This document shows positions 1-64,000 of a stretch of 64,000 bases of DNA, one piece after another. The stretch spans positions 2,604,001 through 2,668,000 of the forward strand of contig JAUFOQ010000016.1 of NCBI GenBank assembly GCA_040285855.1, in the 5' to 3' direction. The notes under the pieces are model-generated. The model ran no database searches. It was given only the letters and a program-made list of their open reading frames with translations, and was not told the DNA's origin. A program made the position numbers and the translations under genes. This DNA is from Eukaryota sp. GEM-RC1. Taxonomy: Eukaryota. Each line of letters starts with the position of its first letter. Within the stretch, counting starts at the first letter, position 1.

Positions 1-896
1 GGGCCTATAGTATCCACGTGTAGGCTCTCAAAGGGTCTTCTAGCAATTAAGTTACCTGTTGTTTGAGCGGTGTTTCTGGCGGACGGCAAGTTGGAGTTCT
101 TTTGACAGCTGGGACAGTGTTGAATGTGGGAGGTTAGGTCTTCTTTGGCAGAAGGCCACCAATAATCGGAGTTCTCGAGGGCCTTTAAACTGGAGGCGAG
201 GGTGGGGTGTCCACAGTGAGGCAGTCCATGGATGTTCATGAGGACGTCTTGTCGTTGGGCCTTGGGCAGAATGATTTTACCTTGGAACAAATATAGGTCA
301 AGAGTTTCTTCGAGCTCAAGAGTTCCTGCTTCAGACAGCTGGTCAATTAAAGCGGCGAACTCAGGGTCTTCGTCTAAACGCTGGGCTTCTCGGAGTTCAG
401 CCATCCAATCGGCCCGTTTGTCTTTGAGAGACATGACGCGATGGGGAGAGAAGAGGTTAGTTGCATAAAACAAGGGGTCGGCAGAACGACGGAGAAGGTT
501 ATCAGCATTGGCTCGGGTCTTTCTAGGATCAACTTTGAGGCCTGGAGCAGAGGTTAAAGGTGTGAAAAATCGTAGAGGTGTTAAGAAATTAGCAGGAGTG
601 TTAGGGGAAAGGGAAAGTTCGGCTTCGGAGTCAGTGGAAGCTGACAACAAGTCGTCAGAGCAATTTACTATCCTAGGGACAAAGGATTTAGCGTGCAGAG
701 CCACTTCTTCTTCGTCAGTGGATATTTCAATATCGTCTGAGGAATCGTCTAGATTAAGATCAGGGCTTGAAGATCGTTTGGGAATTTTGTTTTCTGGAGA
801 GTTGATACACTCAGCAGAAGGAGTCAAGGACTTCAAGAAGTGGGGGCGATCGGAGTCGGTTGAACTCTCAGAGTCGACTATATCTTCGGGGTCCAT
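1..896 (-). CDS. Retroviral-type integrase, partial: Ser/acidic linker, H2C2 zinc-binding domain, start of the DDE core
   Basis: My translation (absent from the ORF track because it has no stop in the window) is open from ATG 896 to position 1 and reads ...GKIILPKAQRQDVLMNIHGLPHCGHPTLASSLKALENSDYWWPSAKEDLTSHIQHCPSCQKN...RRPFESLHVDTIGP. Confidence 0.9.
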   Translation of the reverse strand, partial: MDPEDIVDSESSTDSDRPHFLKSLTPSAECINSPENKIPKRSSSPDLNLDDSSDDIEISTDEEEVALHAKSFVPRIVNCSDDLLSASTDSEAELSLSPNTPANFLTPLRFFTPLTSAPGLKVDPRKTRANADNLLRRSADPLFYATNLFSPHRVMSLKDKRADWMAELREAQRLDEDPEFAALIDQLSEAGTLELEETLDLYLFQGKIILPKAQRQDVLMNIHGLPHCGHPTLASSLKALENSDYWWPSAKEDLTSHIQHCPSCQKNSNLPSARNTAQTTGNLIARRPFESLHVDTIG

Positions 897-920
897 TTGT
901 TCTATATGGCCTTCAATTAA

Positions 921-1361
921 TCATAGGCCTTGCTCATGGAGGAAGGCATGGGGATCTAGTTCAGGATAGTTTTCAGCTTCGCACTGGTTGATGAAGTCTC
1001 GGGTAGCTTCGACAGAGTGGTGTTTGACTCTGTGGAGATCTCGTTTAAATTTAGAAAGAGGTTGTTTAATCATGATCAGACACTCTGGGCATTCAAAGAA
1101 CTTGAGGCCTGAGTGGGAGGTAATCTCTTGGAGAGGGACCTGTTTGTTGGGCGCGTGGGCTAGAAAGTTCGGGTAGCAATCGGAGATAAATTGTAGGCGG
1201 GGAGGTTCCATCTTGAAGCAAAGGTCGTGGATGAGGTTCTTGGCGTTTGCGATCCAGACGTGTGGGTGGACTATCTGGTCTTTGTATGTTTCCATCTTGG
1301 AAACATTAAGTAGGGTTAGGGTTTTCCCTATTCCCTGTGCACGGACCAACAATGATATCAT
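921..1361 (-). CDS. Element ORF with a CxxC-H-H zinc-finger-like motif, in frame with the integrase across a single TGA
   Basis: Contains CPECLIMIKQPLSKFKRDLHRVKHH. The TGA at 921-923 is followed in the same frame by LIEGHIEQMDPED... and then the integrase. Confidence 0.6.
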   Translation of the reverse strand: MISLLVRAQGIGKTLTLLNVSKMETYKDQIVHPHVWIANAKNLIHDLCFKMEPPRLQFISDCYPNFLAHAPNKQVPLQEITSHSGLKFFECPECLIMIKQPLSKFKRDLHRVKHHSVEATRDFINQCEAENYPELDPHAFLHEQGL

Positions 1362-1489
1362 TGTCCCTTTCCGAGGGTTAAGTCGCTGCTTCGGGTTGGC
1401 TTCCCGTTGCTTCTAGTGCTTGAATGTGTCTGGCCAACATCAATTCAAGGCTCTGCCCTTTCTCCTCATTTCACCCTAGATACCGAGAA

Positions 1490-1720
1490 AGTTGTGTTTA
1501 TCCTCTTGTGTCCTGGTTTCTTCTGCTCCACGTTGCTATGAATTCCCCCGTACTTAGTGCTGATGTGTATATCCGCCTATGTGTCTTGCTTCTTCTGCTC
1601 CACGTTGATGTGTTCCTCCGAACTTTGCACTGATGTGTATATCTGCTTATGTTTGTTGTCTATATCTGTCCCACGTTGCTGTGTATATGCCCCCAAACTT
1701 GGCCCTGCTGAACATCTGAT
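1490..1720. repeat. About three degenerate ~70-bp tandem repeats inside the integrase element
   Basis: tgatgtgtatatc occurs at 1561 and 1631, and cttctgctccacgttg occurs at ~1520 and ~1592; a related third unit lies near 1670-1700. Confidence 0.75.
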
Positions 1721-2181
1721 GGTAAAAACGCTCTGCACTCCGAGAATGGAGTTTTGACGGTATCAGGCTGCCGTAGAAGAGCCTTGAGTAGGAGTGAGTT
1801 ATCGGAATCTTCTTTAGTAATGGCATAGGCGGCCATATCTTCGATCCAGGATAGGATGTGTTCGGCATCCAAAGTCTTGAGGAGAGGAACTTTGGTCCTT
1901 ATTCCTTTTCTTCCAAGGGAGGAGTTCAGCAAGGCGACGTTACGGTCGGAGGTTCTTGCATCCTGAACAGTTTCTTCGAGGTCTGTATCCGAGGCATAGT
2001 TCAGCGAACGGAGAGACAGAGGAGCGGCGGCAACTTCTGGGCGGCGGCTCGAATAAAGGTTCGGATGAGAGGAGGCATGGCAGCAGTCCTCATCATCTAC
2101 GGTGACATGAATATGGTCACAATAATTATTGTTGACTATACCGTCAATGAGGAAACTAGTATTAGATGTTTTTGAGAACAT
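1660..2181 (-). CDS. First ORF of the integrase element, unknown function (possibly Gag-like)
   Basis: 173-aa ATG ORF on the same strand and of the same composition as the integrase; no recognisable motif. Confidence 0.45.
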   Translation of the reverse strand: MFSKTSNTSFLIDGIVNNNYCDHIHVTVDDEDCCHASSHPNLYSSRRPEVAAAPLSLRSLNYASDTDLEETVQDARTSDRNVALLNSSLGRKGIRTKVPLLKTLDAEHILSWIEDMAAYAITKEDSDNSLLLKALLRQPDTVKTPFSECRAFLPSDVQQGQVWGHIHSNVGQI

Positions 2182-2578
2182 AAGTGTATTGAACGGAGAT
2201 AAGTGAAATCTATAAAATAAAATATGAAAATAAACAACACCGTAGCCTAAGAAATAGTGATTGCACTGTAGGAAGAGAATTAGTTCCTCAAACCAAGAAG
2301 CATCTGACCTTATGCCACTAGCATATCATTTGTTTTGTTTCATGTGTCGTCTTACTCTTATTCTATCCATCTACTATATTTCATTCTGTCTTATTCTTGT
2401 CTCCCGCATCCTTCTTTTCTCTCATATTCTCAACTCTGATCTTTTTTTCTCTAATATTCTTTTCTCTCCTTTCCAAGACCATCAGGTCTTAGGGACACTT
2501 TTCATGGGTCTTTTGATCCTCAGATTGTGTTCCCGTATTCTTCTCAACTCTCACATCAATCTCCAATTCAAATTGGAT

Positions 2579-2617
2579 CTCACAATACACGGTGATGTGG
2601 AAGCAAACCCCGGGCCT
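2579..2617 (+). other. 2A (StopGo, ribosome-skipping) peptide
   Basis: LTIHGDVEANPGP matches the consensus G-D-(V/I)-E-x-N-P-G|P exactly and ends a ~90-aa hydrophobic leader (ATG 2312). Confidence 0.85.
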
Positions 2618-2750
2618 CCTAAAACTATTGTTGGAGAAAGACACAGATAACGAAACCAACCAGGCTGGTTTTCATTTTTCAACTTGATTACATCCACTCC
2701 TGTGTATTGGATTTGCCCTTCCATTGACCCAAAGTCGTTTCTAGAAAAGT

Positions 2751-4513
2751 ATGGCAAGCAAAAAAAAGAAACTGATGGCCAAAAAGGAAACAGAAGACGC
2801 TGCACGTGAATGGGCGATCAATACTATTCGTCAGTTGAAAAATATCACATATACACGTGATGAGATAAGGGAACTTTTAGAAGTTGACAGCCCTGAGTCC
2901 TATCGAGACACTTTGGATCAACATGTAGCTGTCAGCAGCGCTTCTTATGAACACGAACACAAAACGGCGTTACCAAACATGGAAGTACTGACACGTCTTG
3001 ATCAAAGGAGAATCGTTCCACTTATATCTGAAGTTGAGGTAGATAACTTCTGTGTTGACAGTCAAGCTGAATTGCTGTCAATTTGGAAATCAGGATCATC
3101 AACAGTAGAGCTCACTTCCTTTGATTTTTGGGAAACAATTGTTTCAACAAGGTGGACACAATGTAGATCCTTCAGTATCTAGTTGTGTGGCTGATATACT
3201 GTTCCATTGGTGGATCTCCGAGCAAGAAACGGTATCACAGTACAGTATCGATCATTTCATTTCAAGGCTCAATAAAGATGTGTCGTCCTATTGTAAAACG
3301 TGGATAGATGCTCTTATGCATGAGATCACTTCAAATTGTCGTTTTGGCAAGGATAATCTTGATAAACAACGAAGACTCATGGCTTATGCACCCCAACTTT
3401 CAACTCAAAAGTGGACAATCGAAAAAACGGCTGTATACACCACTACTTTAAGGGTCATTATGGCCGATAAAATAAAAAACCCCCTTGGACATTCTGACTG
3501 TGGTGATAATGAGTTTTTGAATACATCGGTTGTCGAAACACTTGCCGTTCCTCTGTACAAAGTCAAAATAGCTGAAGAATTCTTAGAATGGTACAAGGCA
3601 GGACAACCATGCCGACACATCGGATCCTCAGATGTTCTGCTTATTGGATCATTAGCAGCTATGATAGCCGTTAACTATAAAGAATTGATCTTTGCAGTTG
3701 TCAAGAAGTACTCACGACTAGCACCTGAAACACCATGGTCAAAAATAACTGTAATGACTCCGAACGTCATCTGCCCTTTAACAATGATGTGTATAATCAA
3801 GATTGGATCATTAAGTAATTACATTCGACAAATTTCGTCAATGATTGACTTTAAAGTTCCACAACACATACAGTTCCAGATGGGCTTACCTGGTACGGGT
3901 GGTATGACTGAACGGGGTAAGACGCTAACACCTCAGTCAAACTGTTTAGATGGATTGAACGAATCCCAAAAACCAGCCACTGAAGAAATAAGAAGATTAC
4001 ATGGTACTGATCCTGGTATTTATTGTATTCAAGGAGCTCCAGGTACTGGTAAAACTCGTACCATTGTCAAATTAATAGTCTCTTTAATAAACGATGGTAT
4101 GAAAGTTTGGGTGTGTGCACCTTCTAATAATGCTGTGGAAGTGATATTGTTGAAATTGATTGCTGAACGTGATGTTAGTTGTGATCGACTATTACGAATA
4201 TCAGCACAACTCGAACCGGCAGAAAGTGTACAGGATTTTCTTTTGTCCAATATACTGGCTGAGAAAGAGTCGCAGCATACGACTTCTATGGATTCTCAAT
4301 CACAGGCTCCCCCGACAAAAAAAGTCCAGAAGTGATGATGCTGATGAGGAACAATTGTCAGATCTACAATGGGTAAGAAACAGTTATGATGTACTATTTA
4401 CCACATTAGCTGTTGCTGGTGGGTATCGGTATCAAAACATCTTTGAGCCTGATTTCATAATCATCGATGAAGCAGGTCAATCAACTGAACCTGAAATCAC
4501 GATCTTGCTTTGA
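2751..4513 (+). pseudogene. Upf1/Sen1/DNA2-like superfamily 1 helicase, N-terminal RecA half only, frameshifted
   Basis: Q motif LNESQ, Walker A IQGAPGTGKT (4027-4056), motif Ia VCAPSNNAV, and motif II IIIDEAGQSTEPE (DEAGQ at 4466-4480). Frameshifts near 3120-3170 and at the A-run ~4317-4323. Motifs III-VI are absent. Confidence 0.85.
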
Positions 4514-5640
4514 GTCATTTGTATTTCGCAGATTCCCTTAATGGAAAAATGTTCTTAAATTCAACCAAAGAACATGTAGCATGTGCTAGCAATCTGTTTC
4601 ATCCTCACAATCCAAGTGTACCACAACAAAACAATGACTATGATTGTGGGATTTTTGTTTTATATGTGATTGAAACTTTGTATAAAAGCTTCAATAACCA
4701 GCTTTTGAATCAAGTTGATTTGCAGCATAAACTTCCATTATTGGATGAGAAAGTGCAATCACTGCAAGAATTGATCAATAACAATGACCCAGAAACTCAG
4801 GTAAAGCATTTAGAAAAGGCACAGATTGACTATCAAAATGCCATCAATCAGTTTTACACAGAATACAATCGGTTGTTAGGTTTAAGTCATTGTACCGCAT
4901 TTACCACATGTCAATTCGATTTATCTTATCAAACTTTTGATCCTACAGTATACAGGACTATGTTAAATAATGAAATAAGGAATTACCTAGGGTTACCTAC
5001 TGACGTTCATTCAACCCAATCTCAACAACAAATGAATATATCTGTTGGTACTTCTGAAATATCTGAACCTTCAACACTTATGTCATCTCCTGATGAAATT
5101 CCAGATTCAAATCCCAATGCTCTGACACAAAATGATTCAAAAGAGGTTTCAGAAGCAATCAAGTCTTTGTCACCTGATGGTTGGATTGTGGACGATTGTG
5201 TTAATTGGTACTCTCGACATTTGATGGAGATATATGGAGTTGATTTAAACGCTTTTGTAACTCCTGGATCTGTTCAATCATTTTTAGTTCATGAAAATCA
5301 ATCTCTTCACCAATTTTTCATCAACAAGATTCTTCAGGCAAATTCTAGATATCTGTTTCTTCCTATAAATGACGCATTGATTAACGAAAGTTCTGGTATA
5401 CATTGGGGTTTGATTGTAATCGATACACATGATGAACTTTTCATCTTTCTCGATCCTCTTTATGATGTTGAAGATCACAGACAAGATGTTGGTAATGAAA
5501 TTAATTCGTTTTTGAATCAAGTTATTTCGAAAGTAGATGAAACTCTTCATCAACTCCAGTATCGACTCATTATTGTTCCAGTGACAGAGAAGCAAACACC
5601 AAATGATTGTGGAATTTATGTTCTTGAGTATATGAGTATA
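4510..5640 (+). pseudogene. Two tandem Ulp1/SENP (C48) cysteine protease domains; the second is SENP8/NEDP1-like
   Basis: The first is a C-terminal half only (YFADSL...PQQNNDYDCGIFVL). The second is complete: SLSPDGWIVDDCVNWY...FLPIND...GIHWGLIVID...FLDPL...QTPNDCGIYVL, with the His-Asp-Cys triad. Confidence 0.85.
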
Positions 5641-7263
5641 CTAGAGATGAAGCATTGCATTATATTAATTCTTTTAACTCTACCACTCACCCTGAAAATG
5701 TTAAGTTTATTGATGAAGTTTCCAAAGTTTTTGATGATGATTTCAGTATGTTAATATTTGAACAGATTAATTCTCTCATGGCTGATAAAATTCCAGAATT
5801 ACATCAAACATTTAATATAATATTTCCTGTTTCAATCACTACAAACGACAATGAAACTGTAGACGTCCATAATTTACTTTACACAGTTCAGGAGTATCCA
5901 CTTCATTTTCTCAGAAATTCTCTTCAAATCTCAGATTACTTGGAATCCAAGGGTGCTAAGTTGTATAATGTAATTCCTCTAAGTTTAGAGAATACTCCTT
6001 GTTTTTTCCCAATAGATACTAGAACTCTTTGGGGACTGGCTAAGCACTGTTTTGGGTATAGGAATAATGATAAGAAGATTGGTCCTTTACACTCGAAAGT
6101 GACTAATTATATGAGTAAAGATCAGATCCAAAACATGACCCATTCTCAACAACAAGATTACTGGAAAAGATGGTTTAACTGTGATGACAGAAGTTTTGAC
6201 AAAGCCAATTTTGAATTCAACAACTATGCTGTAACTGATGGAATTTCGATTTGTTTTCAATTTGTGAGAAAGGATTTGAAAGGAATGAAATGTAAACCCG
6301 ATTCAAGTAAAGCTTCAGTAAAGGTACAATATTTCAATGAATGTGATAGGTCTGATTATATTTCGAAACAAATGGTTTATGTGGACATTAGAAAGAGAGA
6401 TATGATACAACTTGCCTCTAAATCAAATAGGGAAACTCAAAATCCTCTAAAGAAATACAACTTCTTACGATTGACATATGCTGAGTGGTCTAGAGTTTCA
6501 CGAAAGCATAAAAGAATCCACCAGTACCTTGTTAGAAGGAGATCAGGTACTACTACCGTGAGAGCAGGTGATGATAATCCAATAACTGTGACAATGAAAA
6601 TTGAGAAATGGAACACTTGGTTAAGTGAAGAACAGGATTCTAAAACTGTTAATTACACTAAATTTAGAAAGTTTATTCTGAATAAATGTATTCACTACAA
6701 TGCAACTAAAGACTTCTATGATTTGCATATATGGAGGATTCACAAAATCCAAAATCATGTCCATAAGCAAAAGACAGAGTCTAAATTGGTTAACAGCATT
6801 GTAAAAACTTTTGGTAGCCGTGACTAAATCGTACTATGTATTAGTGATTTAGGTCAGAAGCCAATGTCCAACTTAAAACACAGTCCACCATCGAGAACTA
6901 AGACTTGGACTTCATTCTTTCAGAGAAATGGTTTTCTAACAGTTATGAATGATGAGAGAAACACTTCGTCCAAGTGTCCAGAATGTCATGAAGATGTTTT
7001 TGAAACTTCTGTTGAGGTTGTCAACCCAAAGCCCAAATCAAGAAAAAAGAGAATGGATTCACCCACATGGCTTACTAGAGTGTAAGAGCAAACATTGTCT
7101 GGGAGAAGTCAAGAAGCGATTGAAGGGGGAAAAGAAAGGGCACACAGTGCCCACTCAAATGTATTGGAATCGAAACAAGATGGCTTGTTTGAACATGATG
7201 AACATGTTCGAACACTGGATGAATGGTAGTGATGAGAGAGTAGAGTATCTGAGTAGAAATTAG
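5641..7263 (+). pseudogene. Fanzor (eukaryotic TnpB-family RNA-guided endonuclease), Fanzor1-like, disrupted
   Basis: YPLHFL...YNVIPL...PIDTRTL; F-x4-VTDGISIC; RuvC-I VDIRKRD (6381-6401); FY-x4-R-x2-K...KQKTESKLVN-x4-FG; RuvC-II NDERNTSSKCPEC (from 6948); NPKP...HGLLEC-x3-C; RuvC-III WNRNKMACLNM (from 7165); C-terminal ERVEYLSR. In-frame TAA at 6825 and a frameshift near 7050. Confidence 0.9.
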
Positions 7264-7319
7264 TTATATTTTTGTTAGCTGGCTGGTGAAACCCGGCCAT
7301 ATTTGGTTAATTCCACCAA
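7200..7319 (+). ncRNA. Candidate Fanzor omegaRNA scaffold (3' part)
   Basis: Two hairpins directly after the Fanzor stop: TGGCTGG-TGAAAC-CCGGCCA (7280-7299) and TTGGT-TAATTCC-ACCAA (7303-7319). TnpB/Fanzor omegaRNAs are encoded at this position. The 5' limit is a guess. Confidence 0.4.
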
Positions 7320-8087
7320 TGTTGAACAATACTATACGATACCTACGCATTGCCTTGTACTACATCTGTTTTCTGCTATTCTTTAATGTATACCCTCTGT
7401 TTTGCCTTCCTCTTTTCCCAATCCTTGGATCTTTACGAGTTTTCCATTATGCAGCAGCCTTCTTTTTTTAAGTACGTTCTCCGAACTGATGTAATTCTAA
7501 TCGGAAAACACAAAGATGACGTTAAACAATTCAATGGGGTCGTCCTATCAAGCCACAAGAGCCATATAGACTTCTTCCTCGGTTTTGCATTTGGAGATGC
7601 TGCTTCTCTTGGACGTATGCTTGTTGCTGCTGCTTGTCCTTTCATGTGGCTTTGTGGCTGGCTATCATCCACCTTTATCGTATTCAATCGCTCCAAGAGC
7701 AAACGCAGCAAACCTCTGCGTGAACGTTTTACAGATGCCATTTCTAAACGTGGTCGTTTGTTGATTTATCCCGAAGGCCACCGTCTGCCCATCAGAGGTA
7801 CTTTATCCCCCTTTAGAACTGGAATTCTGTCTTATTGCTTCCACAATAGAGTTCCTGTTTTTCTTGCACCAGCAGAAGGGGCCCAGGTTGTTCTCAACTA
7901 TGCTACTGGTGCTATTAGAAGAGGATATCCTATTGTGATTAATTGTTGTAATGTTTTATATCCAGATCAATATCAAGACTTGGAGGATTTTATCGCTGAT
8001 GCACAAGAGCAATTTATTGCGGGTTATGAAGATGCAACTGCGGAGTTTGATTCCATAGTATCCAAAAATTCCCAAAGAAGAATTTAA
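7319..8087 (+). CDS. 1-acylglycerol-3-phosphate acyltransferase (PlsC/LPAAT family)
   Basis: HX4D motif SHKSHID and IYPEGHR. The hydrophobic N-terminus MLNNTIRYLRIALYY... (ATG 7319) joins through a frameshift in the T-run at ~7463-7469. Confidence 0.85.
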
Positions 8088-8170: not shown

Positions 8171-8674
8171 TTAACTGTTAAGAATCGCAGAAAAAAGGGA
8201 CATGAAACATGAGTTGATATTTCTGCCATTAGCTGCAGAGGTTTCAAAGTATCTTAAATTATGTTGGTCACACCATTGAGAGGCTTCTAGTTCAGAGACT
8301 ACTCGGTTGGTTTTATCAATCTTATTTCCACATACAAAAATGGCCATGTTTTTAGGGGCGTTGAATTTGGAGGCCTCAGCTAACCACAAAGAGAGATTAT
8401 CAAAGGAGCAACGGTTCGTTACATCAAAGACGAGGACAGCACCCTGGGTGTCCGAGTAGAACTCGTTGCGGACTTCGAGAAAGTCGTTTGAGCCAGAAAG
8501 GTCAAAGAAGCTTATCTTTAATTCCATTCCTGCAACATTGACTGACTTAATGCCATAGTCAATCCCTATTGTGGCAAGATACTTGGAGATGAAACGATTT
8601 TCACAAAATCGCTTGATGATAGTTGACTTTCCACAAGCTAGGTCGCCCATGGATATGATTTTAAGACGTTTCAT
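8171..8674 (-). CDS. RJL: RJL-family Ras-like GTPase (no J domain)
   Basis: KIISMGD-x2-GKS-x-IIKRFCENRF-x2-YLATIGIDYG, FFDLSG...EVRNEFY, NKID and ETSA. DLSG replaces DTAGQ, as is typical of RJL. Confidence 0.85.
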   Translation of the reverse strand: MKRLKIISMGDLACGKSTIIKRFCENRFISKYLATIGIDYGIKSVNVAGMELKISFFDLSGSNDFLEVRNEFYSDTQGAVLVFDVTNRCSFDNLSLWLAEASKFNAPKNMAIFVCGNKIDKTNRVVSELEASQWCDQHNLRYFETSAANGRNINSCFMSLFSAILNS

Positions 8675-8756
8675 ATAAGACGTTCATAGAACAGGTTCTT
8701 GAAGATGAAACTGGAATTTGTATTTTTCATTCATACTACTACAACAGGTTGAAAAT

Positions 8757-8871
8757 CGTAATCTTTTACCGAGTGGTGGTGAAGTCGTTTGGATTTAATC
8801 TTAGTATTACTTGTTTGTTTTTACAATTCCATAGTTTTGTAGAAAGGTTATTTTATCGGGTACCGAATAAA
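8757..8871 (+). repeat. Short 3'-terminal fragment of a non-LTR retrotransposon, same family as 34523-34636
   Basis: Close match to 34523-34636 (cgtaatcttttaccg.gtggtg.tgaagtcgtttggatttaatcttagtatta...ccgaataaa). Confidence 0.8.
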
Positions 8872-34289: not shown

Positions 34290-34650
34290 AAAACCAAATT
34301 TGTGTTTCAACCTTTTGCTGTTTCTCTTTTGGATCTATTAGTCCTGCTGGTGATCAATTTTTCAAGGATTTCGAAGAATTGTGTAAAGAAAAGAAGCGTC
34401 AGTTTAGAATGGCTGAATGGAAAAACCGTATAGTGTTTTCCATATATCGGAATATGCCTTTCTATTTCTCTAGATTAATTGAGAAATTGAACAAGTTTGG
34501 TGTGAAGGTTAATGTTGATAAACGTAATCTTTTACCGGGTGGTGATGAAGTCGTTTGGATTTAATCTTAGTATTATTGGTTTGTTTTTACAATTTCATAG
34601 TTTGTTGGAAGGTTACCTTATTGGATGCCGAATAAACATATATATATCTA
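34290..34650 (+). mobile_element. RLE-type non-LTR retrotransposon 3' end with AATAAA and (TA)n tail
   Basis: FGSISPAGDQFFKDFEELCK...WKNRIVFSIYR...*, 3'UTR shared with 8757-8871, then aataaa and (ta)n. Confidence 0.7.
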
Positions 34651-35441: not shown

Positions 35442-35837
35442 TCAGAAGAAGAAAAAACGAAATGTCAATCTGATAGGACTTTGTCAATTGGGCTCGACTT
35501 ATGGAAAATAAACTCTATCTATCTCGAACTTCTATATGTCGAAAATGAATCAATCCAAGTGTATCTAAATACAAGCAAACAACGGTGTTTAGTTTTTGTC
35601 CAGAGTTTTATGTTTACTTTACCACACTCCAAGTGTATTTCCGCACATTCTAACCCCAATCGCCAAAAGTATCTTTATTGTCAAGCTCTTTTTAAAATTT
35701 AAAACAGCTACATGTTTTCCATTACAGAACATCATTAACAAGGAGAAAACCAAACCTCCTGTTCCTCTCATACTCATGTTAGAATCAAAAATACAAAAAC
35801 TGACAATAATTAAAAAATCACAGGTTTTCTGTACAAG

Positions 35838-35904
35838 TGCCAGCTTACCCTTTACCACGGTTCTATTGGAAAATCAGATAAAGCTGACTTTCACACTGCT
35901 GGCA
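35838..35904. ncRNA. Candidate structured RNA, copy 1 (stem plus TTACCCTTTACCACG)
   Basis: Stem TGCCAGC/GCTGGCA closes a loop that starts with a 15-mer identical to 44953-44967. Confidence 0.45.
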
Positions 35905-44813: not shown

Positions 44814-44929
44814 CAGCTAATAGATTAGAAATGTCAAATAGGTAAGGGTAACCTTTTGTTGAGGAGTCAATTTGGAAAGAACCAATCTAGAATCTAGAAT
44901 CTAGAATGTACAAACACTACATATAACGC

Positions 44930-45006
44930 ATCGTCGAGGTCCCAATACAAGCTTACCCTTTACCACGCTTGCATCGAAACCTTGCTTGTATTGGGACCTC
45001 GACGAT
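44930..45006. ncRNA. Candidate structured RNA, copy 2: perfect 23-bp hairpin with the same 15-nt loop motif
   Basis: ATCGTCGAGGTCCCAATACAAGC / GCTTGTATTGGGACCTCGACGAT with a 31-nt loop starting TTACCCTTTACCACG; imperfect pairing extends ~20 nt further out. Confidence 0.55.
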
Positions 45007-45039
45007 ATTGTATGTGTGTTTAGTGACCGGCTTTCTTCA

Positions 45040-46641: not shown

Positions 46642-49600
46642 ATGAACGGAACAGTTTCTGTTTTCGTTCTTTTGAAGTCCGCCCATGGTCCTTTCTGTCT
46701 CAAAGGATCCTTTAATCGTTGGTCGAGTCCAGTTGAGCTGACCCAATTAGGACATGGGTGCTGCTGGCTAGCTTTACTCGAGAGACGACCATTCGCCTAC
46801 AAATATTACTCCACAAGGAAAGCAGAGTCACGACCTAATCGCTTCTATGATGGTGAGCATTCAATTATTGTCGACCATCGTTTTGCTTGTACCACAGACT
46901 TTTCTGCTTGTGAATTGCTGATTGCTCTCGCCGATGTTCTTCTTAATGGCATTCAGTACATTAATGATCCTGCTTTTCTCTGTCGTGCCGTAAAACTGAT
47001 ATTTAAGACGATTATTAATGAGGTGTTTGTGTCAGATTCTTCTTCACAAGAACTCTATGATGGGATTCAGTATGCCATTAGAGTTCTTACATATTACAAG
47101 CAGCTACCTCTCCTCATTGATTGTTTAGCTAGGTTCACATGTCTTCGGAACAACGTCTCAAAAGAGTCTCTTGCTTTGATTTTTAAGCATCCACAGTTTT
47201 GGTCGAATCCCAAGTCATTTCTTATATCCCATCATGTTCTGAGACATCACTCCGATCCTTCTTTCTTATTTCCAGTGTTCTCTGTTCTGTCTGACAATTC
47301 TTCCCTTTATCCAAATTTTCGATCTCTTTCTCAACATGAACATTTGCTCAGTCAAAGCCTCCGTTCTTTCAAAGATCAATCTCTTCCTTGCTTCCTCCGT
47401 CTCGCTTCTTCTCCTTTTCCCAAAGAGCTTTCCCACCAATTATGTACTCAACTAATTGATGTTCTCCCCGTAGCTACCTCTCTCTCAAGGTTCATGACTC
47501 TCTTCACGAACCAATGCTAAATCGGCTTCAGCGTAATAACAATTCGCTACTCCTCGCTAAGTTCCTCTTCAGGAACTGGAAAGATGACTTACTTTCCTCC
47601 GACAACTTCGTTAAGTCCGTTGGCTTGATCATTCAACACAATCCTCATGCTTTAGCGTTTGTAGCCACACATCTCAATAACAATGCTCAGTTTTGGGACC
47701 ATTTAAAGAAGTTTAAATCCACTGAGTCTGTTGTACAAGCTATTCCAGTCATTGTTGAATTTTTCGAACTAGACTCTAAAACTCAAAAAGTTTTGATTGT
47801 AATCCTGACAGAATTTGTACAAAAACTTCTGTTCCTAATGTGTTCCAAACTCTTGTTTTAGGTCTTCCCAAGATCTTTAATGGATGGTCAGAAACTCCAG
47901 AAATTCTACGATATTTGTGCCAACAGTTCCCCAACCTTTCCCCTGTTTGTCTAGAAAGCTTTATTGAACAACCATTACGTGAAGCTTATGTCGTTCTAGA
48001 ACACGACATTAAGAAAACTCCTTTGAGTCAAGCAGTTAGTTATTGCAAGAAGATATACGAAAGCGTTGAAGAAACTTGTGTCGTTGGAGATATTCTTATA
48101 TTAAAAGAAGGAACTAACTTTGAAAAGTTCATTGCTAATTTTGCTCCTTTTCATTTATTACAAGACCAAGGAAGTTCTGAAGTTGATAATGTTGAATCTT
48201 CTCTTCGCACTAGATTTACTGAATTATTTACTGAAATGGAACTCTTCCAACACAAAATAAGAGATTTTATTACCATTGCAGAATCCTTTGAACTTTCAGA
48301 TGAAGTAAACGTGATCCAACAGTTCAAAGATTCCCTTCCCCTTCTAATGAGAAGTTATCTAATGTATTGGCTAATCCAATTTCTACTGTGGTTACTCAGA
48401 TTGTTTCCACCTTTTTAGATGACGTTCAGTTCGATGAGAAGTTCCGTCCTGAAACTGTTGTTGCAAAGATCTCTTCTACGGCTCTATTTCGTCATTTCTA
48501 TACCAGCTATGTAAATAACGTTCCGCCCAGTGATCACGAACAAGTAGTAGTAGATGGGAATGAAGAGGGGGAGAATGTGCCTGAAGAAGAACCTGAAGAA
48601 GATGATATTGTTGAAGAAGATCATGAAGCTAGTTCTGAAGAAGATCAAGATGATAATGTCCCTGCAGGACTTGATCCTGTATCAGCTGCTACTACAATTT
48701 CTCAACAAATTCTACAGTTCATTTTCCAACTGCTTGAACCTGATGTCAAGGCTTCTCATTTGGAGTCTATTTATAGTAGTTTTAATGAAGAAGAAATGTC
48801 TAATGAAATGGAAATTATCTCTCTTATTGATTCCTCTGGAAAACTTCAGAAAGACGTGCTTTTCAATATCAAATCATGGGTCAATCGTCACGTGTGGGAT
48901 CCAATCATTGCATGTTTCCAGAATGTTTCTGGATTATTTAGTTCAATCAAAGTTTCAGCATCCAATTCTGATAAAGAAATTCCTTCTGTTGAAGAACTTT
49001 CTTCAGAATCTCTATTATCTGACTTTGGATCTTACTCCAAGAAGTTCAGCTCAATGGTTGATTGTAGTCATTGCAATCGTACGTCACCGCCACTGTATTT
49101 ACAAATCTTCCAACTTCTGAACAATGCGGATGACTTACTTTCAATTCTGAACAAATACTCTACTTTAACACCGGAAGAACTTTCATCAAAGCTATATGGT
49201 AACTTTGCCGCCTCTTATACTGTTAATAGCTCTGTGGCTCAGTTTTTTATCAGTATGTTGGATGATCCGAAATCTCTTTGGAATTCTGTATTAAAGCCAG
49301 TATTTGATGCTGTTCATTTTGATGATGAAATTGTCAACGTTGACATTCTACAGTTATTAGACACACTTCATACATGGATGAACGAAAATTGTCACTCTCC
49401 TCAACGCGTTGCTGCCGATTGTAAGTCAATCAATCAATTAAAGAGTGCAATCAAGGCAATTGATGAATTGTTAGGCAGTGATGGCGATCAATCTGCATTG
49501 ATTAATATCATTTCTAAGTGTAATTTCCAAAAGGAACGCTTCTTTTTAATCTTGAAACCATTACTGTCGGTCTGCAACTTCCTACTGGAGAAGGCACTCA

Positions 49601-52600
49601 AATAGATGTCCCTGAAGAGGAGTTTCATAGAGCTCGAGCTGAAGGAATTATTTTACAAGCAGAATCTATTGAGAATAGTGAGGAACAAGTTGATCGTAAG
49701 TCTGGAGTTGATGATGAAAAAAGAGATCAATTTTTAAATATGTGCCAGCTAGTTGATGAAACTCTTTTCATTTTGAGACAATTAGTAGATTGTGGTTTTC
49801 CCATCAAATCTAATGAGGCTGAACTTATTGTCATGATTGAAGAACAAAACTCTGGTATTGAAGAACAAGTCGAGACTTTACGAGAATTACGTGATACTTG
49901 GATGACTCTCTTGGAACAAGCTCAAAATGGCTGGTTTCGAGGAATGCATCCGAAAGAAATTTCCAATTTTTTCTTGAATCGTCAAGTGTCTGATATAGTG
50001 AGATACTTTCATCTGTCCGGGTTGGACTGTAATTCAATCCAATCAAGGAAAAATGTTCAATCTGGAATTGATGCTTGTCCCTCTGTTAGTGACACACTGC
50101 AGGAAGTTTTGAATTTTAGGGAACCATCATCTGTTGAAATCAAAGGTCAATCAATTACGTACTTTCAATCAGATTCTCTATCAAATCTGTTTAGTGATGC
50201 TTTGAAAGTAGCAGTTCATAGAGAGATTGAATTAAACATTCGAAATGTTTTAATTTGTAATTGGGAAACTTCGTTCAGTTCTTTAGTTGCAGTTATGTCT
50301 GACTCACTAGTATCTGAACGATTAATTATTGGTTTTGATCAATTGAAATTTTCTGTTAGGGAACAGCTCTATACCTACATGAAGGATAAGAACGAGGAAA
50401 ATTTTAAAATTTCTGTAGTTGGGTGTGGTACAGATTTCCTTGACAATACCCACTCTGTACTTGGTACCCTTCCTTCGGAAGTTGACTTATCTTCAGTATT
50501 AGAAAGTTGTTCTGTAGGTGCAATTTACACGTCAGCAGTACCTGGTCAAGGTAAAACTACAAGATGTTTAAGAGAATGCGTTCCTGAAGGTTTGGTTGAA
50601 ACTCATCCGAAAACATTTAATATTTCTGGAAAAGTCAATATCTCTGAATTTATTGAAAAATATCTTCGTGATGATAAGATATTTTGGGCAAATCGAAATA
50701 TTCATTTAGATATTCGAGAGCCGTTGGATGTTTTAAAAAGAACCTTCACTCGGGAACACTGGACAACGTCATCCAAATTGACTTCCCAAGACTTCTACAA
50801 TACAGGTTACATTTTGTTTTCCTTGTCTTTTCTCTCAGGTCTTCGTCACAATGGTTCTATTTTTAGACTTGGAAGAAAAGATGTATATTGAGTTTGCTTC
50901 ATATTCCAAAGCCAGTTTAACTCCATTCAATTGGTATAATTCTCTTATTGATTCTTTATATCCAAACAAAGATGGTCTTGTCAATGAACTTACTTTTGAT
51001 TTTTCCCATGTTAAATTCACTTCTGAAGAAATGAAAGTTTACGTTGCCAAAATTATTTCCTCTCTTTCCTCTCTTCTCAATTCTTCTGCTTCGTTAGAGC
51101 CTCTTTTTACTAATACTTTTGCAGATCTACCTCCTCCTCATCAAAGTCAATGGTCATTTAGACTTCTTACTGATATTGTTTCTTTATTGGGATCTCAATT
51201 GAATTATTTTGATCAAGCCGTTGCCTTTTCTCCTGAGATTATGGCTCTAAATGGGTATAATACTAGTCTAATTCAAGCCATTCGCCGTGATGTCATTGAT
51301 TTGCTGTGTGGTTTTTCCCGTCAGACCGTCCTCATGTCAGTTCCTACTACAAATGTGGATAGAAAGGAAGTTGTGGTCAATTGGAATGATATGAATCATG
51401 TTATGTTCATGTTAACTCGTGATTCTCCTTCATTTACAGTTCCAAGAGGAAGCAGAGTTCCAAATGCTCTTAAATCGTATATTAGGGATAATACATCTTC
51501 AACAGATTCTCCTGAAATTCCAGCCACTGATGAAGGTAAAATTTCAAAAATTCGAGCATTTACTTTTGATGTTCCGGTACCACCTAAATTATGGAAAGAA
51601 CGTTTCGGAAACTATGCCCTCACTGGTGATGCTTACCTTAAACAGACCTTAATTGCTCTCAGATTTTCTGCTAATTTGCCTACCATTCTTCGAGGTGCTA
51701 GTGGTGTTGGAAAAACTCATTTACTGGAATGTTTAAGTTTTATTTTATTTTGGAATGGATCTGCTGAAACTTCCAATTTATGGGAAGAATTATTTGTTAA
51801 TGTTACTGTAAATGCTGGTACAGAACTTCACGAAGTAGAAGATACTATTAAAAGGGTCAATGATCTCGCCATACTACTTCCTCCTGAAAGTCCTCTCTTT
51901 CCAATTCTATTTTTAGATGAATGTAATGCTTCTGATTTCTTAGGACTCGTGTCTTGTTTAATTACCAACAGAAAGCTTGGAACTCTAACTTTACATCCAA
52001 AAGTCCGCTTAATTGCTGCTATCAATCCATATCAAAAAGGTGATGGTGATAAGCTTTTGTATAATGTTCACCCAGAACCTTCATGTTTAATCCCTCTCAT
52101 GATGGACTTTGGTAAGTTGTCGGAAAAGGATGAAGAAGAATATGTTATTAAAATTGCCGAAAGAGCAGATTTGTTATCTGAAGGCATTTGCTCACCTTCA
52201 GACGTTCTTTTATTAGCTACAATTCTGTCTCACATCCACAGATGTTTGAACGATCCAAAAGTTGCTGCTAATATTCCTTGGATGATCTCTCTTCGAGATG
52301 CAGTTAGAGCAACACGAATTTTAAAGTTTTTAATTGAATTTAAAACAAATCTTGCCCCGGATCTCATGTTCTTCTCTGAGTCCACTTTTTCACATTTACT
52401 TCTCTTAACTGTTTACGTGTGCTACATTCTCAGACTACCTACTAAAGTTGGCCAGGATGCTCTCCTTTTAAGAATCTGTAATGTCCTGGGCACTGTACCG
52501 TTTACTGCTAGACAACGAATCAATACAACTTTGTCTCAATTTGTAGACTTGGGAACTCTTCCTGAAGGTGTTCGTAAAACTACCTACTTTTTGGAAAATA

Positions 52601-55600
52601 CTTTTGCAATGTTTCTTGCCTTAATTTCTAGAACTCCAATTATGGTTATTGGTGCTCCAGGAACTTCAAAGTCTCTTTCACTTACTGTTTTACTTACTTT
52701 TCTTTCCTCAATTAATACTTCTGAGTCGGGTTTTCATCGTATTTTCCCTCATCATTTCCAAGGAAGTCACGCGGCAACTACTAAATCAGTAATGACTGTG
52801 GTAGATAGAGTCAAGAAAAGTGCAGTAGAGGATACCAACGTTCGACATGCTTTAATTATGGATGAAATTTCTTTACTTTTAGATGCTCCTGCAAACCCTC
52901 TAAAGTGTTTACATTCTGTCCTGGAACCTCGAGAAGAAAAAGTACCTCTGTTTGCCTTCATTGGAATCTCTAATTCAGACTTTGATGCCGCTCCTTCTAG
53001 TCGTGCTATCGTCATCCATCGTCAGGAGCCCTCTGATGCTGAACTCACTGCTTTACTGAAGGAAATTGGCCAGTATAATGATGACAGAATTCCTAGGCAG
53101 CTGACGGAGTTTCATAAGCGTATGAAGTATTTGGCCAGCCAACTTCATCCATCTCACGGTATTAATTTCTTTGGAATGAGAGACTGTTATCAGCTCACAA
53201 AGTGGTTAAGTACAGTAGATTTTTCCAGAACAAATCACCGTCGTAATTTTTTAAGAGCCTATGGAGGTTTAAGTTTGAAGAATGATGCTGTTTTTGATAC
53301 TGTTTCCAAAATCTTTACCTCGCAAGTTCCTCAAGGTGCTGTAAAATACTGGAAATTCTGGCGACCTGTCCGCAACCAGGCGATTTCACCCAGTTATCGA
53401 TTACAACTTGAACATGAATCATTTAAAGCGTGTTGTTACTCAGTGCACGATCATACTCCTGAATCAAGGCACATTCTCTTTATAGGTTCACTTCGGCATT
53501 CATTGTATATTATCAGAAGATCTCGAAAAGATGTTGATATTGTTGTGGTTCAAGGTTCAAGGTTTGAGAAAGATGCTTATAATGACGTGTCCTACAATCA
53601 CCTATCAAAAGTGATTACTGCTGTAAAGTTAGGTAAAGTAATTGTTCTTTCTGGTACTGAACACATTATTGGAGCTTTGTTCGATTTAATCAATAAGAAT
53701 TACCTTAGAAAAGATACTAAAACCCGTGATGCTCTTTGTAGAGTGGCTTTAGGACCTGTTTCTAACTCTTTGTGCCACGTCAATGAAAAAACTAAAATTA
53801 TTTTGGTAGTTTCAGAGGAAAATTTAAAATCTACACCTCCCGCTCTCTTGAACAGAATGGAAAAGTTTGTTTTATCAGACTTAGCTCCTTCTGAGGAGTC
53901 CAGTGATGTTATTGAAAGCCTGTTTGATGATTTAGGTGTTTTAAAATCTCTACCAAAATGTTCAATTACTGATTCTCAAATTCGTCAAAACTTCCTATCT
54001 GAGTTGCAACTTGTTGATAATCTTCGTCTTGAACGTCTTCATTTCCTTGCAAATCCTGCTCGTGTTATTTCATCTAACAGTCACTCCTATGATGGCCCTT
54101 TTCTTACTCTTACCCATGCCCTTGGCCACCTTTCTAGTCTTGATGTACTTCAACATCCACTTAAGGTCGTAGCTCTGTCTAAAGTGTTTGGACAATCATT
54201 TGACTCATTGCCTGGATATGAGTCAATTAAAATCACCAACGTATCTAGTGTTTCTGAATCTAGTGATTTAAAAACATTATTGAAAAATACTGGTATTGAA
54301 ATAATCCAAAAATTACTTGACGAAGATGCAGCAGAAACCGCCAAATCTTTGTTGGTTATTAGAATTGAAGGTGATGTGGCTAAACATTATGATTTCATTG
54401 AAGAGTTTAATATTCACGAAGTGTTAAACAAATACTTCAGCCAACACGCAGATCCCCAAGTGTTTTCAAAGTATCTCTTAAATTTGGATATTGTAATCAC
54501 CATGATTAATGGTGAAGGTCTACAGCTCTCTCCACTTTCTTCTTTTATTGCTGTCTATTGTGACTCAATTAACTATGTTTCTATAGTTGGTTACACTGTT
54601 TCTAATATTTCTGAATTATTGAATTTTTCTGTATCTGATAATCAACATGACCATTTATTACCACTGTATGGATCACTCCTAGTTCCTGCCCTAATGAAAC
54701 TGTCCCTTCCTCCTGCCAAAATTCGACCTTGCTATCAAATGGTCACGTCATTAGGAGATGCTTTTGTTGAATTTTTCCACGAGGTCCTTCCTATTCGTCA
54801 AGAATCTGACAGAATTCCAGCTTCTCCAAATATTCGGTTCAATGTTTCTACCAATGAAACTAAATGTTTATTGGAACAACTTGATTTATTTGTTAAAGAT
54901 CATTTGCTTTCTCAATTACAGGGGTTTTTCTCTATCTTAATTGATTGGAATTTGATTATTCCTTATCATGTAGGTGATGGTGCCATGTCTAGTAAATTGT
55001 ACCTTCACTGTGTTAGTTGGATTCTGACAAAATTACCACAGTGGAATTCAGCATCTAATTCTTTTGAAATCTCAAATTTTGATAGGCTTCCATTTATTTA
55101 CTTTTTTTGTGCTTTAATTGAACACCATCGTAATAACAATTCCGAACTTGCAGTCTTTTTGGAACTCATTGAAGAAATGTCAGACCGTCATATTTTGCTT
55201 CACAATTACAATTGCGAATTTGGAGAAAACAATATCACCTCAATTGTTCAACCAATATTTGAATATTTCCAGGTTTCAGATTTCCTTGTCGATTCTTTCG
55301 TTCAAAATACTCCTGAATGTTCCTCAATCGTTGATATTTTTGCTGAGCTTTACATTTTCTTGACAAACAATCAACTTTATCACCAATCACTTGTTATTGC
55401 TCATCTGCAATCACTCAACCAGCCAATCCATGGGGATCAATCAACGACAGCTCTGGGTTTCCAGCTCATTAATTCTCTCCAACCTGAAGCTAAAGAAGCT
55501 GTGTCATCTCATCTTTCTTTAGAGATTGAGGATAGTTCTTTAGGCAGAATATGTACTTCTTGGTTAAAGTTGGCATATGTTCATGATTGTTCTGACGAAC

Positions 55601-62123: not shown

Positions 62124-64000
62124 TTACAAAGGACTAAACAATTTGGCTAAACCATCAAAAATTTCGGACACTTTCAATTTTGATTCCGCCAAGAATTCTA
62201 AATCTTCATTGTAATAGCGAACTTCGCAATCTTGAGAATCCATGGGATGAAGTCCGACTCTCAAAACAAACTTCTTTAATAATCTACGATGATTTCTAAT
62301 AGATGTCCTTTTGTCAGTTTCTGTAATGAATTTGCTTTGCTAGTAGTGAGTTTCTTTTTAAACTCAGGCTGAACTAATTCTTGTAGGAGCTCGATTGGGA
62401 AAGTCTGCTCAACTAAATTTAATATAGTTAAAATCTCTTTAACTGGTTCATTTGCAAAATGGAGTCCAATATTTTGGCAAAAATCGTCAAGTCTTTTCTG
62501 TTTCAGAAATGCCTTTAAGCTCATAGATCTGTCATTTGGAAGATCTGTAGCAATAGTTCTAGTGACAATAATAATTTCATTATACAAAGGTTGGTATTCA
62601 TCATCAAAAATGGAAGGTGGACAGACAACATTATCATCAACAGTAAAACCTTGTTCCAAAAGAACATCCTCTAAATCCCACAAGTCTTTGGTTTTTGACA
62701 ACAAAAACTCTGGTGATTCTATTGGTTCAATTTTGTGCTTAATCAATCCAGAAAGAATGTAACCGTCATAAACGTGATCTACAACTCGTAAACTGCAAGT
62801 GAAAGGATCAAGGGTAATACCACGACTGTCATAATTGATTTGAACAAAGGAATCAGAATTGATTGAAAAGAGATCAATCGATCCCAATGAATAATTTCCA
62901 ACAAGAGTATTATGAGTATTGACAAATTCCTCTTCAATTAGAGTTCGAATAGGTAATGCATCCTCAGAATCGTCAAGAGTGAATAATCCAAGGCAAGAAG
63001 AATCAGAAATTTTGTTTGGAACAGAAAGAGAAGTGCAACCAACAGTTACATTTCCTGTTCTCAGAGAAGTCCGTAAATCAGACAAAATACCACTATAAGT
63101 ATCACGAGCATCTACAAAAGGCTTCTACTTCCAGTACTGGTCAATATTTTTTTGGTTGGAGTTGCAATAGCTTTGAATTTGAACATTAAAGCGGTCTTTT
63201 CACGAACAAACTTCACCAGTTTTACAAATGCAGGGAGGTGTTCGGCAACGCTCATAAAAATACAAGCTTTAGAAATATCAACATTATTTAAAAATGGTGA
63301 TGACTTGTCAGGAATATCGTTAACAATTGGTGACGATGCAACCAAAGATGACAACGCAGCAACATCACTACCTAATTCCTCTATTGAAACTCCCTCAATT
63401 CTAGAGCTTAAAGTTAGAGCAGTCACATCAGACTTGGGAAGTGGATCAAGTTCAATTGAATTAAGAATGGTCATGATACGATCTTCAGCTTGAAATTTTT
63501 CCTCTATTGATGCACATACAAAATTTGGAATTTCATTAGAAATCTTTCGAATTACGTGCGCAAGGATTAAAGAGACTTGAGGTCTAGTAACACGCAGAAT
63601 GTTGGCCAAAACATTTAAACATTCAATCAATGTATCACGAAGTTGAGCCAATCCATGTTCAACGTCATACATTCTAGCATACTGGTCTCCAATACCATTA
63701 GTAACACAAGCACGAGCTAAGACCATGTACAAAAAGACACATGATCCAAGTAACCAAGATCTTAGATTTGAATAGCGGAATAAACCCTTCATACAAGGTT
63801 CTAAAGTTCCATTAGTAAATACATCGTAACGACCAGGTTGTAGTCCAGGTTGCCATTGAGGATTGGAGGAAAAGTGTTTGAAAGGAACTTCAGGTGAAGA
63901 ATCCATTTGTGACCAATTGATAGCAGAACATTTTGGACACTTGTGTTGATCTGGGCCAGTCCAAACATTAGGCCCACTACCACGATCACTAACTCCTGAG
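62124..64000 (-). CDS. RNF213: C-terminal part of a second RNF213-like paralog (convergent with the first; 5' part outside the window)
   Basis: Near-identical to 56710-58570 (MDSSPEVPFKHFSSNPQWQPG...; HPMDSQDCEV). Frameshifts near 63115 and 62300. Confidence 0.9.

What the first reader, a model, noticed from the sequence alone, without database searches (positions are those of the whole stretch)
2312..7319. Fanzor encoded at the end of a 2A-helicase-deneddylase-like polyprotein: a candidate new architecture for eukaryotic RNA-guided systems
Seen: on one strand, without intergenic gaps, the order is a hydrophobic leader, GDVEANPGP, a Upf1/Sen1-type SF1 helicase, two Ulp1/SENP-type proteases, a Fanzor with RuvC-I/II/III and a CxxC...C-x3-C zinc finger, and then 3' hairpins. 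Established: Fanzors are TnpB-derived, omegaRNA-guided nucleases carried by DNA transposons and giant viruses, normally as stand-alone ORFs or beside a transposase. Inference: the ancestral element made one virus-like polyprotein split by 2A, coupling RNA-guided DNA cleavage to a helicase and to removal of host SUMO/NEDD8. I do not know of this combination being described. This copy is decayed.
Basis: partly seen in the sequence, partly recalled or inferred. Interest (0 to 1): 0.95.

Follow-up and report, generated by a model that had tools for sequence, protein, structure and literature searches.

The report
Exonuclease-fused Fanzor in 2A polyproteins
This is a broken, internally deleted copy of a protist mobile element whose relatives' predicted proteins fuse a Fanzor nuclease directly to a DNA-proofreading-type exonuclease, behind virus-style 2A motifs and SUMO/NEDD8-type proteases, so the intact element likely makes a natural RNA-guided enzyme that would both cut DNA and trim the cut ends.

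Summary
All named pieces are real: 2A-like motif, half an Upf1-type helicase, one partial and one catalytically complete Ulp1 protease, and a Fanzor1. But the order seen here is not the ancestral reading frame: the joins at ~4500 and ~5643 are deletions. Close siblings (up to 95% identical) and relatives in three protist genomes show what was lost: a second 2A, a PolB-type DEDDy 3'-5' exonuclease with intact catalytic residues, and the Fanzor N-terminus. The exonuclease-Fanzor junction has the same spacing in 8 of 8 subfamily representatives and is absent from 126 other Fanzor1 hits. The clade is monophyletic and uses a D-E-N RuvC triad, which is active in GtFz1. Ulp1 and 2A modules share a predicted protein with the exonuclease or Fanzor in relatives, so the polyprotein idea largely holds. 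The SF1 helicase link rests on this copy alone, although one relative carries an unrelated DEAH helicase. I found no such fusion in print. No intact DNA copy, ends, transposase or omegaRNA could be examined.

The parts
2312..2590 (+). Pyrimidine-rich leader frame before the 2A motif; true start and left end of the element not determined
   Evidence: hydrophobic leaders also precede 2A in P0018 and P0239
2591..2617 (+). 2A-like motif GDVEANPGP (Asp at -13, three Leu in -19..-10); in-frame stop follows at 2648-2650
   Evidence: related motifs in 9 of 69 clade proteins
2618..3950 (+). Helicase N-terminal region in three frames (frameshift in an A-run near 2760-2767 and another within 3109-3182); the part from 3109 resembles the ZNFX1 domain (lead only)
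   Evidence: Atlas feature score 0.94, PF25396 on 58% of members
3951..4500 (+). Upf1-like SF1B helicase RecA1 half: Walker A at 4033, Walker B at 4466; frameshift in an A-run near 4317-4323; second RecA domain missing
4501..4720 (+). C-terminal remnant of Ulp1 protease 1 (Asp 4531, Cys 4645; His absent); begins at the first deletion junction
   Evidence: the deletion is inferred from the missing halves of both domains
5110..5642 (+). Ulp1/SENP8-like protease 2 with His 5401, Asp 5452, Cys 5608; cut just after the Cys helix by the second deletion
   Evidence: 63-68% identical to the P0018 family
5643..7263 (+). N-terminally truncated Fanzor1: RuvC-I D 6384, RuvC-II E 6954, C4 zinc finger, RuvC-III N 7174; in-frame stop at 6825, frameshift in an A-run near 7041-7050
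7264..7318 (+). Putative right end / omegaRNA scaffold with a GC-rich hairpin at 7280-7299; bounded by the ATG of a host acyltransferase gene at 7319
   Evidence: position by analogy with SpuFz1 (PMC10432273, passages); not shown to be an RNA

Best explanation
The window holds a non-functional, twice-deleted copy of a multi-copy mobile element whose intact form likely encodes a long 2A-punctuated reading frame ending in an exonuclease-Fanzor1 fusion, predicted to cut DNA at RNA-guided sites and likely to trim the 3' ends of its own breaks. Shown: the domains and deletions here; in relatives, a PolB-type DEDDy exonuclease fused without linker or 2A to a Fanzor1 with a D-E-N triad, and upstream 2A, Ulp1 and (once) helicase modules that differ between subfamilies. 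Inferred: ribosomal skipping at 2A releases upstream modules (Ulp1 proteases, probably the helicase) from the nuclease at fixed stoichiometry. An omegaRNA from the right end guides cutting of the empty site. The exonuclease chews the ends so that they cannot simply re-ligate, which would favour repair from the element-bearing copy or destruction of the target. The proteases would remove SUMO/NEDD8 marks from host silencing or repair proteins. The transposase is unknown and probably supplied in trans or lost in the deletions.
For: Sibling cluster of 18 proteins, top hit 95% identical. P0007 reads 2A-exo-Fanzor. Exo I D-x-E and Exo II D are present in 13 of 13 aligned exonucleases, Exo III D in 11 of 13 (the other two end or shift frame earlier). 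Exo III-to-WED spacing is gap-free in 8 of 8 subfamily representatives; exo and Fanzor identities correlate (Mantel r 0.70, 40 of 5040 permutations, 7 sequences). AF2 model of P0227: pLDDT 81, pTM 0.72. It matches SpuFz1 (E 9e-29, target TM 0.82) and Pol delta (E 2e-6); VIA gives GtFz Z 21.2 over residues 384-1083 and PolB exonucleases Z 15-17.5. The clade of 15 has support 1.0, with RuvC-III N in 14 of 15 versus 3 of 121 outside. D-E-N is active in GtFz1, and SpuFz1 D606N is more active than wild type (PMC11423790 section 7). 0 of 126 other Fanzor1 hits carry the exonuclease or a 2A motif. 4 of 6 relatives' 2A motifs have Trp at -16 and 4 of 6 Asp at -13, residues enriched in viral 2As (PMC13405545 section 13).
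Against: No intact DNA copy was seen; relatives are automated gene models that may splice over frameshifts (P0239 lacks Exo I). The window's helicase matches 0 of 69 clade proteins. Its Ulp1 #2 is only 63-68% identical to the nearest family, while its Fanzor belongs to another subfamily, so the deletion could have joined two separate units. [quoted passage not shown] A 3'-5' exonuclease would shorten the 3' tails that homologous recombination needs (established knowledge), which fits target destruction better than homing. No terminal repeats or target duplication found; the omegaRNA fold is weak. No activity was tested.
Confidence: 0.6

Rival explanations
1. Same exonuclease-Fanzor fusion, but this copy is a chimera: the deletions joined two or three neighbouring units (a 2A-helicase ORF, a Ulp1-Ulp1 ORF and a 2A-exo-Fanzor ORF) of a cluster or larger composite element, so the helicase was never in the Fanzor reading frame.
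For: Both joins are frameshifted deletions. No helicase sibling among 69 proteins. Different subfamilies sit close together in the named GEM-RC1 record: 3 of 5 Ulp1-family genes lie within 21 locus tags of a Fanzor-family gene (p about 7e-4 under uniform placement, ignoring general repeat clustering).
Against: All pieces are co-oriented and start behind a family-typical 2A. The nearest subfamily with more upstream sequence reads Ulp1-2A-exo-Fanzor in one model (P0236/P0233). P0226 has a DEAH helicase ahead of exo-Fanzor. Shorter helicase siblings (<715 aa) were not searched.
Confidence: 0.4
2. The exonuclease does not act on the Fanzor cut: it trims the 3' tail of read-through transcripts to set omegaRNA guide length, or trims element ends during transposition.
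For: DEDD folds include RNases and CRISPR prespacer-trimming Cas2-DEDDh among the structural matches (Z about 11). DEDD nucleases are accessory genes of P and piggyBac elements (PMC3627910, passage) and of Terminons, where 3'-end processing was proposed (PMC6431247, passages).
Against: The best matches are DNA-polymerase proofreading domains (Z 14-17.5 versus about 11-12 for RNases; PF03104). Other Fanzor1s work without it (0 of 126).
Confidence: 0.3
3. The locus is a remnant of an endogenous virus or Polinton-like element whose PolB gene was invaded by a Fanzor, with the exonuclease a passenger.
For: PolB exonuclease, SF1 helicase, clan-CE protease and 2A are a virus-like kit (established knowledge). 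The exonuclease matches phage and herpesvirus polymerases.
Against: Catalytic residues are kept across subfamilies at 30-58% identity with one fixed junction. No polymerase, capsid, integrase or RT family in 45 of 69 clade proteins scanned in Pfam. No relatives in viral contigs. This may still be how the fusion first arose.
Confidence: 0.1

Closest known systems
Fanzor1 nucleases SpuFz1 (PDB 8GKH, 9CEU-9CEZ), PpFz1 and GtFz1 (9CER)
   Same: Fold (target TM 0.82 to SpuFz1), RuvC-I and RuvC-II motifs, zinc finger, position at the 3' end of the element; D-E-N triad as in GtFz1.
   Different: N-terminal DEDDy exonuclease fused to the WED domain; part of a 2A/Ulp1 polyprotein; long-branch clade (branch 0.84); no inverted repeats found.
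Fanzor1-carrying DNA transposons (Helitron, Mariner, hAT, Sola, MuDR, Crypton; PMC3627910, PMC10530073, PMC10711439)
   Same: Multi-copy, internally deleted derivative, Fanzor at the right end.
   Different: No transposase family seen in 45 scanned clade proteins; the passages and supplements searched mention no exonuclease, Ulp1 or AAA_11 fusion.
2A-bearing non-LTR retrotransposon ORF2 proteins (L2/CR1/Crack/Ingi; Dualen/RandI with Josephin or OTU deubiquitinases; PMC3708506, PMC13405545)
   Same: 2A-like motif near the N-terminus and deubiquitinase-type proteases in a mobile-element polyprotein.
   Different: No APE endonuclease or RT seen; the polyprotein ends in exonuclease-Fanzor.
Terminons of bdelloid rotifers (PMC6431247)
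   Same: Co-oriented accessory ORFs including DEDDy exonucleases; clustered arrays.
   Different: RT-based; exonucleases are separate ORFs; no Fanzor.
Engineered Cas9/Cas12-exonuclease fusions such as Cas9-TREX2 (recalled, no call)
   Same: RNA-guided cut coupled to 3'-5' end trimming.
   Different: Here the fusion is natural and its activity untested.

Membership tests
Fanzor1 | Sequence and fold homology to solved Fanzor1 | tested here: met
   P0233 vs SpuFz1 E 1.6e-14; models of P0011 and P0227 rank seven Fanzor1 chains first; window piece up to 95% identical to siblings
Fanzor1 | RuvC triad D, E in DExxTS, and D (or N as in GtFz1), with C4 zinc finger | tested here: met
   D 6384, E 6954, N 7174; N in 14 of 15 clade members. 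The literal 2013 motif ends in RD, but GtFz1 has an active N
Fanzor1 | omegaRNA at the right end of the element | tested here: inconclusive
   One hairpin, z -2.45; longer folds not significant; no Rfam match; no sibling DNA for covariation
Fanzor1 | TAM-dependent RNA-guided dsDNA cleavage | not testable with these tools
   Needs an assay; this copy lacks the N-terminal WED/REC part and cannot be active
PolB-type DEDDy 3'-5' exonuclease (relatives; deleted in the window) | Exo I D-x-E, Exo II D, Exo III Y-x3-D and DnaQ-like fold | tested here: met
   PF03104 down to E 1e-17; no trace in the window's six frames
2A ribosomal-skipping peptides | GD(V/I)ExNPGP core | tested here: met
   Window motif exact; 5 of 9 clade motifs keep the Glu
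2A ribosomal-skipping peptides | Actual skipping, which depends on upstream context | not testable with these tools
   Context resembles active or viral 2As but needs a reporter
Ulp1/SENP (C48) proteases | His-Asp-Cys triad with oxyanion Gln | tested here: met
   Met for domain 2 (5401, 5452, 5608); domain 1 has lost its His
SENP8-type deneddylase | NEDD8 specificity | not testable with these tools
   SENP8 is the best PDB hit, E 1.2e-7; similarity only
Upf1-like SF1B helicases | RecA1 with Walker A/B plus RecA2 (AAA_12) | tested here: inconclusive
   RecA1 present; RecA2 absent at the deletion junction; no intact sibling found
Known autonomous TE superfamily (Helitron, Polinton, DDE, non-LTR) | Rep-Hel, pPolB plus integrase, DDE transposase or RT; characteristic ends | tested here: inconclusive
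   None in 45 of 69 clade proteins scanned; no ends found; flanking genes of siblings could not be read

The most novel reading that the evidence does not exclude
A distinct class of virus-like mobile elements in metamonad protists, built as modular 2A polyproteins (swappable helicases and Ulp1 proteases) around one conserved engine: a natural RNA-guided cut-and-resect enzyme (DEDDy exonuclease-Fanzor1). It would spread by RNA-guided breakage and host repair without a classical transposase, while its proteases switch off host SUMO/NEDD8 control.
Probability: 0.25. Interest if true: 0.92.

Novelty: new variant of a known kind. Interest (0 to 1): 0.76.

Why it matters
Fanzors are known as stand-alone nucleases whose role in their transposons is an open question. 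A lineage that has kept a catalytically intact exonuclease fused to Fanzor1 across three species and about eight subfamilies gives a direct handle on what happens to the DNA ends after an RNA-guided cut: wild type versus exonuclease-dead is a simple comparison. It would be a natural counterpart of engineered nuclease-exonuclease editors, and near-complete natural ORFs are on record (P0227, P0077, P0233). It would also extend 2A polyprotein design and Ulp1 cargo from viruses and LINEs to RNA-guided elements, and it adds a whole clade that uses the D-E-N active site.

Tried and rejected
No genome is held for this window and sequencing runs could not be consulted, so no sibling DNA, ends, TSDs or read support were available. 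Contig scans found no relatives: viral contigs with the clade alignment (38 pattern hits, 0 confirmed) and with the helicase (8, 0); metagenomes with the alignment (276, 0) and with P0233 (589, 0). The helicase search among 715-2040 aa proteins gave 53 hits, at most 49% identical over at most 34% of the query; the named ones are cellular SF1B helicases. My first idea that RuvC-III N means a dead nuclease was rejected after reading PMC11423790. A hint of a third Ulp1 fragment right after the 2A was not supported by a clade HMM. Repeat search over 1900-7700 showed no terminal inverted repeats or target duplication. No second copy of the 3' hairpin in the window. The Gypsy-like element on the left is on the opposite strand and is treated as a neighbour or nested insertion; its LTR boundary was not resolved. 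The first AF2 model (P0011, pLDDT 59) was too weak for the exonuclease. Earlier scan findings held nothing on this genome or these sequences.
Full report
Observation. The + strand from 2312 to 7263 carries, in order, a pyrimidine-rich leader, GDVEANPGP (2591-2617), a helicase fragment, two Ulp1 pieces and a Fanzor. The 2A core is the only one in the window's six frames and arose 0 times in 200 base-shuffled windows. Pfam gives AAA_11 (E 2.6e-17 and 3.5e-9) but no AAA_12, Peptidase_C48 (E 5.4e-17, two stretches), and only a weak TNB hit (E 0.024) for the Fanzor. PDB sequence hits are SMUBP-2 for the helicase and SENP8 for the proteases. The frame is broken by in-frame stops at 2648 and 6825, by frameshifts near 2760, 3109-3182, 4320 and 7045 (three in A-runs), and by two junctions near 4500 and 5643. 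A host gene next door also has a homopolymer frameshift (7461-7469), so some single-base shifts may be assembly errors; the stops and deletions look like real decay (inference).

Siblings change the picture. A search with the Fanzor piece among 700-2000 aa proteins gave 1 hit in 1176 candidates, 95% identical, with a PolB exonuclease domain in front. Its cluster has 18 members in the named record Eukaryota sp. GEM-RC1, 15 listed. All 10 listed siblings that extend upstream stop matching the window at 5640-5646. P0007 begins with a second 2A-like motif, then the exonuclease, then the Fanzor. So at least ~575 aa are missing at 5643, including the WED/REC part, and this copy cannot be active. The junction near 4500 likewise joins helicase motif II to the Asp strand of a Ulp1, losing the second RecA domain and the protease's His (inferred from the missing halves).

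The clade. A phmmer search of P0011 against 1.84 billion representatives gave 758 hits, the best 150 listed. Nine of the ten looked up belong to two further named records, TZLM1-RC and TZLM3-RCL. GEM-RC and TZLM3-RCL are free-living metamonads (skoliomonads) with nanopore-based assemblies and AUGUSTUS gene models (PMC11316075, passages); the passages I saw do not name TZLM1-RC. The window itself is unnamed. Of 160 proteins examined, 136 spanned enough of the nuclease half to be kept for a tree; 15 formed one clade with support 1.0 on a long branch inside the Fanzor1-like hits (FastTree, midpoint root, no reference sequences included). RuvC-III is N in 14 of 15 (the other is frameshifted), against 113 D, 3 N, 4 gaps and 1 I in the 121 others; one short clade fragment not in the tree, P0229, has D. 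I first read this as inactivation, but GtFz1 cuts with N at this position and SpuFz1 D606N is more active than wild type (PMC11423790 section 7).

The exonuclease fusion. Thirteen clade exonucleases keep Exo I D-x-E and Exo II D; 11 show Exo III D. The stretch from Exo III to the first WED strand is gap-free in 8 of 8 subfamily representatives, which are only 30-58% identical in the exonuclease, and exonuclease and Fanzor distances correlate (r 0.70, 40 of 5040 permutations). This points to one ancestral fusion kept under selection (inference) and is hard to explain as a gene-model artefact. An AF2 model of P0227 (pLDDT 81, pTM 0.72) matches SpuFz1 at target TM 0.82 and replicative polymerase exonuclease domains over residues ~123-380. 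No polymerase domain follows. None of 126 other hits has the exonuclease or a 2A motif; I assigned clade membership of the 69 proteins by cluster and similarity, and some outgroup proteins are fragments.

Upstream modules vary. Nine of 69 clade proteins carry a 2A-like motif, four of them without the conserved Glu. Five have Ulp1 sequence in the same model as the exonuclease or Fanzor: P0016, P0018 (leader-2A-Ulp1-Ulp1-exo, continued by the overlapping P0085), P0167 (by motifs and BLAST to P0239; no Pfam call), P0236 (Ulp1 tail-2A-exo) and P0239 (2A-Ulp1-partial exo-complete Fanzor; Ulp1 E 0.0018, below the curated cut-off). P0226, 1 of 4 in its cluster, puts a DEAH helicase in front, while cluster-mates P0077 and P0225 have another N-terminus. 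The window's SF1 helicase matches none of the 69, and the search for long homologues found only distant helicases (shorter proteins not searched). Its N-terminal part resembles the ZNFX1 domain, a lead only. Locus tags show that different subfamilies cluster, which leaves open that the window's deletions joined neighbouring units.

Ends. The element's right side stops before the ATG of an acyltransferase gene at 7319, leaving 55 bases after the Fanzor stop, with one notable hairpin. This is where Fanzor1 omegaRNAs lie (PMC10432273, passages), but it is not demonstrated. On the left, a Gypsy-like element runs on the other strand (integrase zinc domain E 4e-10). No terminal repeats were found. 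No transposase, RT or polymerase family appeared in the 45 clade proteins scanned.

Mechanism. Most likely the intact frame is split at 2A into accessory modules and an exonuclease-Fanzor. The latter would be guided by a right-end RNA, cut the empty site, and trim 3' ends so that the break is not simply re-ligated (about 0.6 overall; every functional step is inferred). Rivals are a chimeric origin of this copy's helicase join (0.4, compatible with the exonuclease fusion), a role of the exonuclease in omegaRNA or element-end trimming (0.3), and a passive viral remnant (0.1).

Literature. Ten full-text searches found no description of an exonuclease-, Ulp1- or 2A-linked Fanzor. I saw search listings for most papers; passages of PMC6338049, PMC10432273, PMC10530073, PMC10711439, PMC11316075, PMC3708506, PMC3627910, PMC6431247 and PMC10288648; passages and section 7 of PMC11423790; abstract and sections 13-14 of PMC13405545. 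Term searches of the held supplements of PMC10530073 (2 files) and PMC10711439 (1 file) gave 0 hits. Supplements of PMC13405545 and PMC10432273 were not seen and could list these sequences; subscription papers and Repbase entries are outside the library. Each accessory piece has precedent in other transposons (2A and deubiquitinases in LINEs; DEDD nucleases in P, piggyBac and Terminons), but not fused to a Fanzor.

Verdict. The best-supported novelty is a conserved exonuclease-Fanzor1 fusion with a D-E-N triad inside modular 2A/Ulp1 polyproteins: a new variant of a known kind, interest 0.76.

Noticed in passing
window 1-2100 (-): Gypsy-like retroelement remnant: gag-like frames followed by an integrase zinc-binding domain (PF17921, E 4e-10) with no RT seen between them; runs off the window, head-to-head with the Fanzor element.
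   Followed up: partly
window 7319-8087 (+): Host acyltransferase gene (PF01553) whose likely ATG lies about 55 bases after the Fanzor stop; a T-run at 7461-7469 shifts its frame, suggesting homopolymer errors in the assembly.
   Followed up: partly
window 8171-8683 (-): Ras-family GTPase (E 1e-40).
   Followed up: no
window 8748-8844 and 34514-34610; 27771, 39246 and 46294; 20292 and 39891: Short dispersed repeat families (97 nt at 90%; 65 nt in three copies; 115 nt at 73%), possibly small non-autonomous elements.
   Followed up: no
window 44919-45017 and 35831-35871: 34-nt inverted repeat with a 31-nt loop; a related 41-nt stretch occurs 9 kb upstream.
   Followed up: no
window 47780-58576 (+) and 62138-63999 (-): Very large multi-ORF gene with several P-loop-like motifs (resembles RNF213/mysterin, recalled, not searched); its 3' part is duplicated in inverted orientation at 81-91% identity.
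   Followed up: no
P0226 residues 144-556: DEAH/RHA-type SF2 helicase ahead of exonuclease-Fanzor in one gene model, a second, unrelated helicase type in this clade.
   Followed up: partly
locus tags: Clade genes cluster, several with spacings of 15-31 gene models, hinting at tandem arrays or a much larger composite element.
   Followed up: partly
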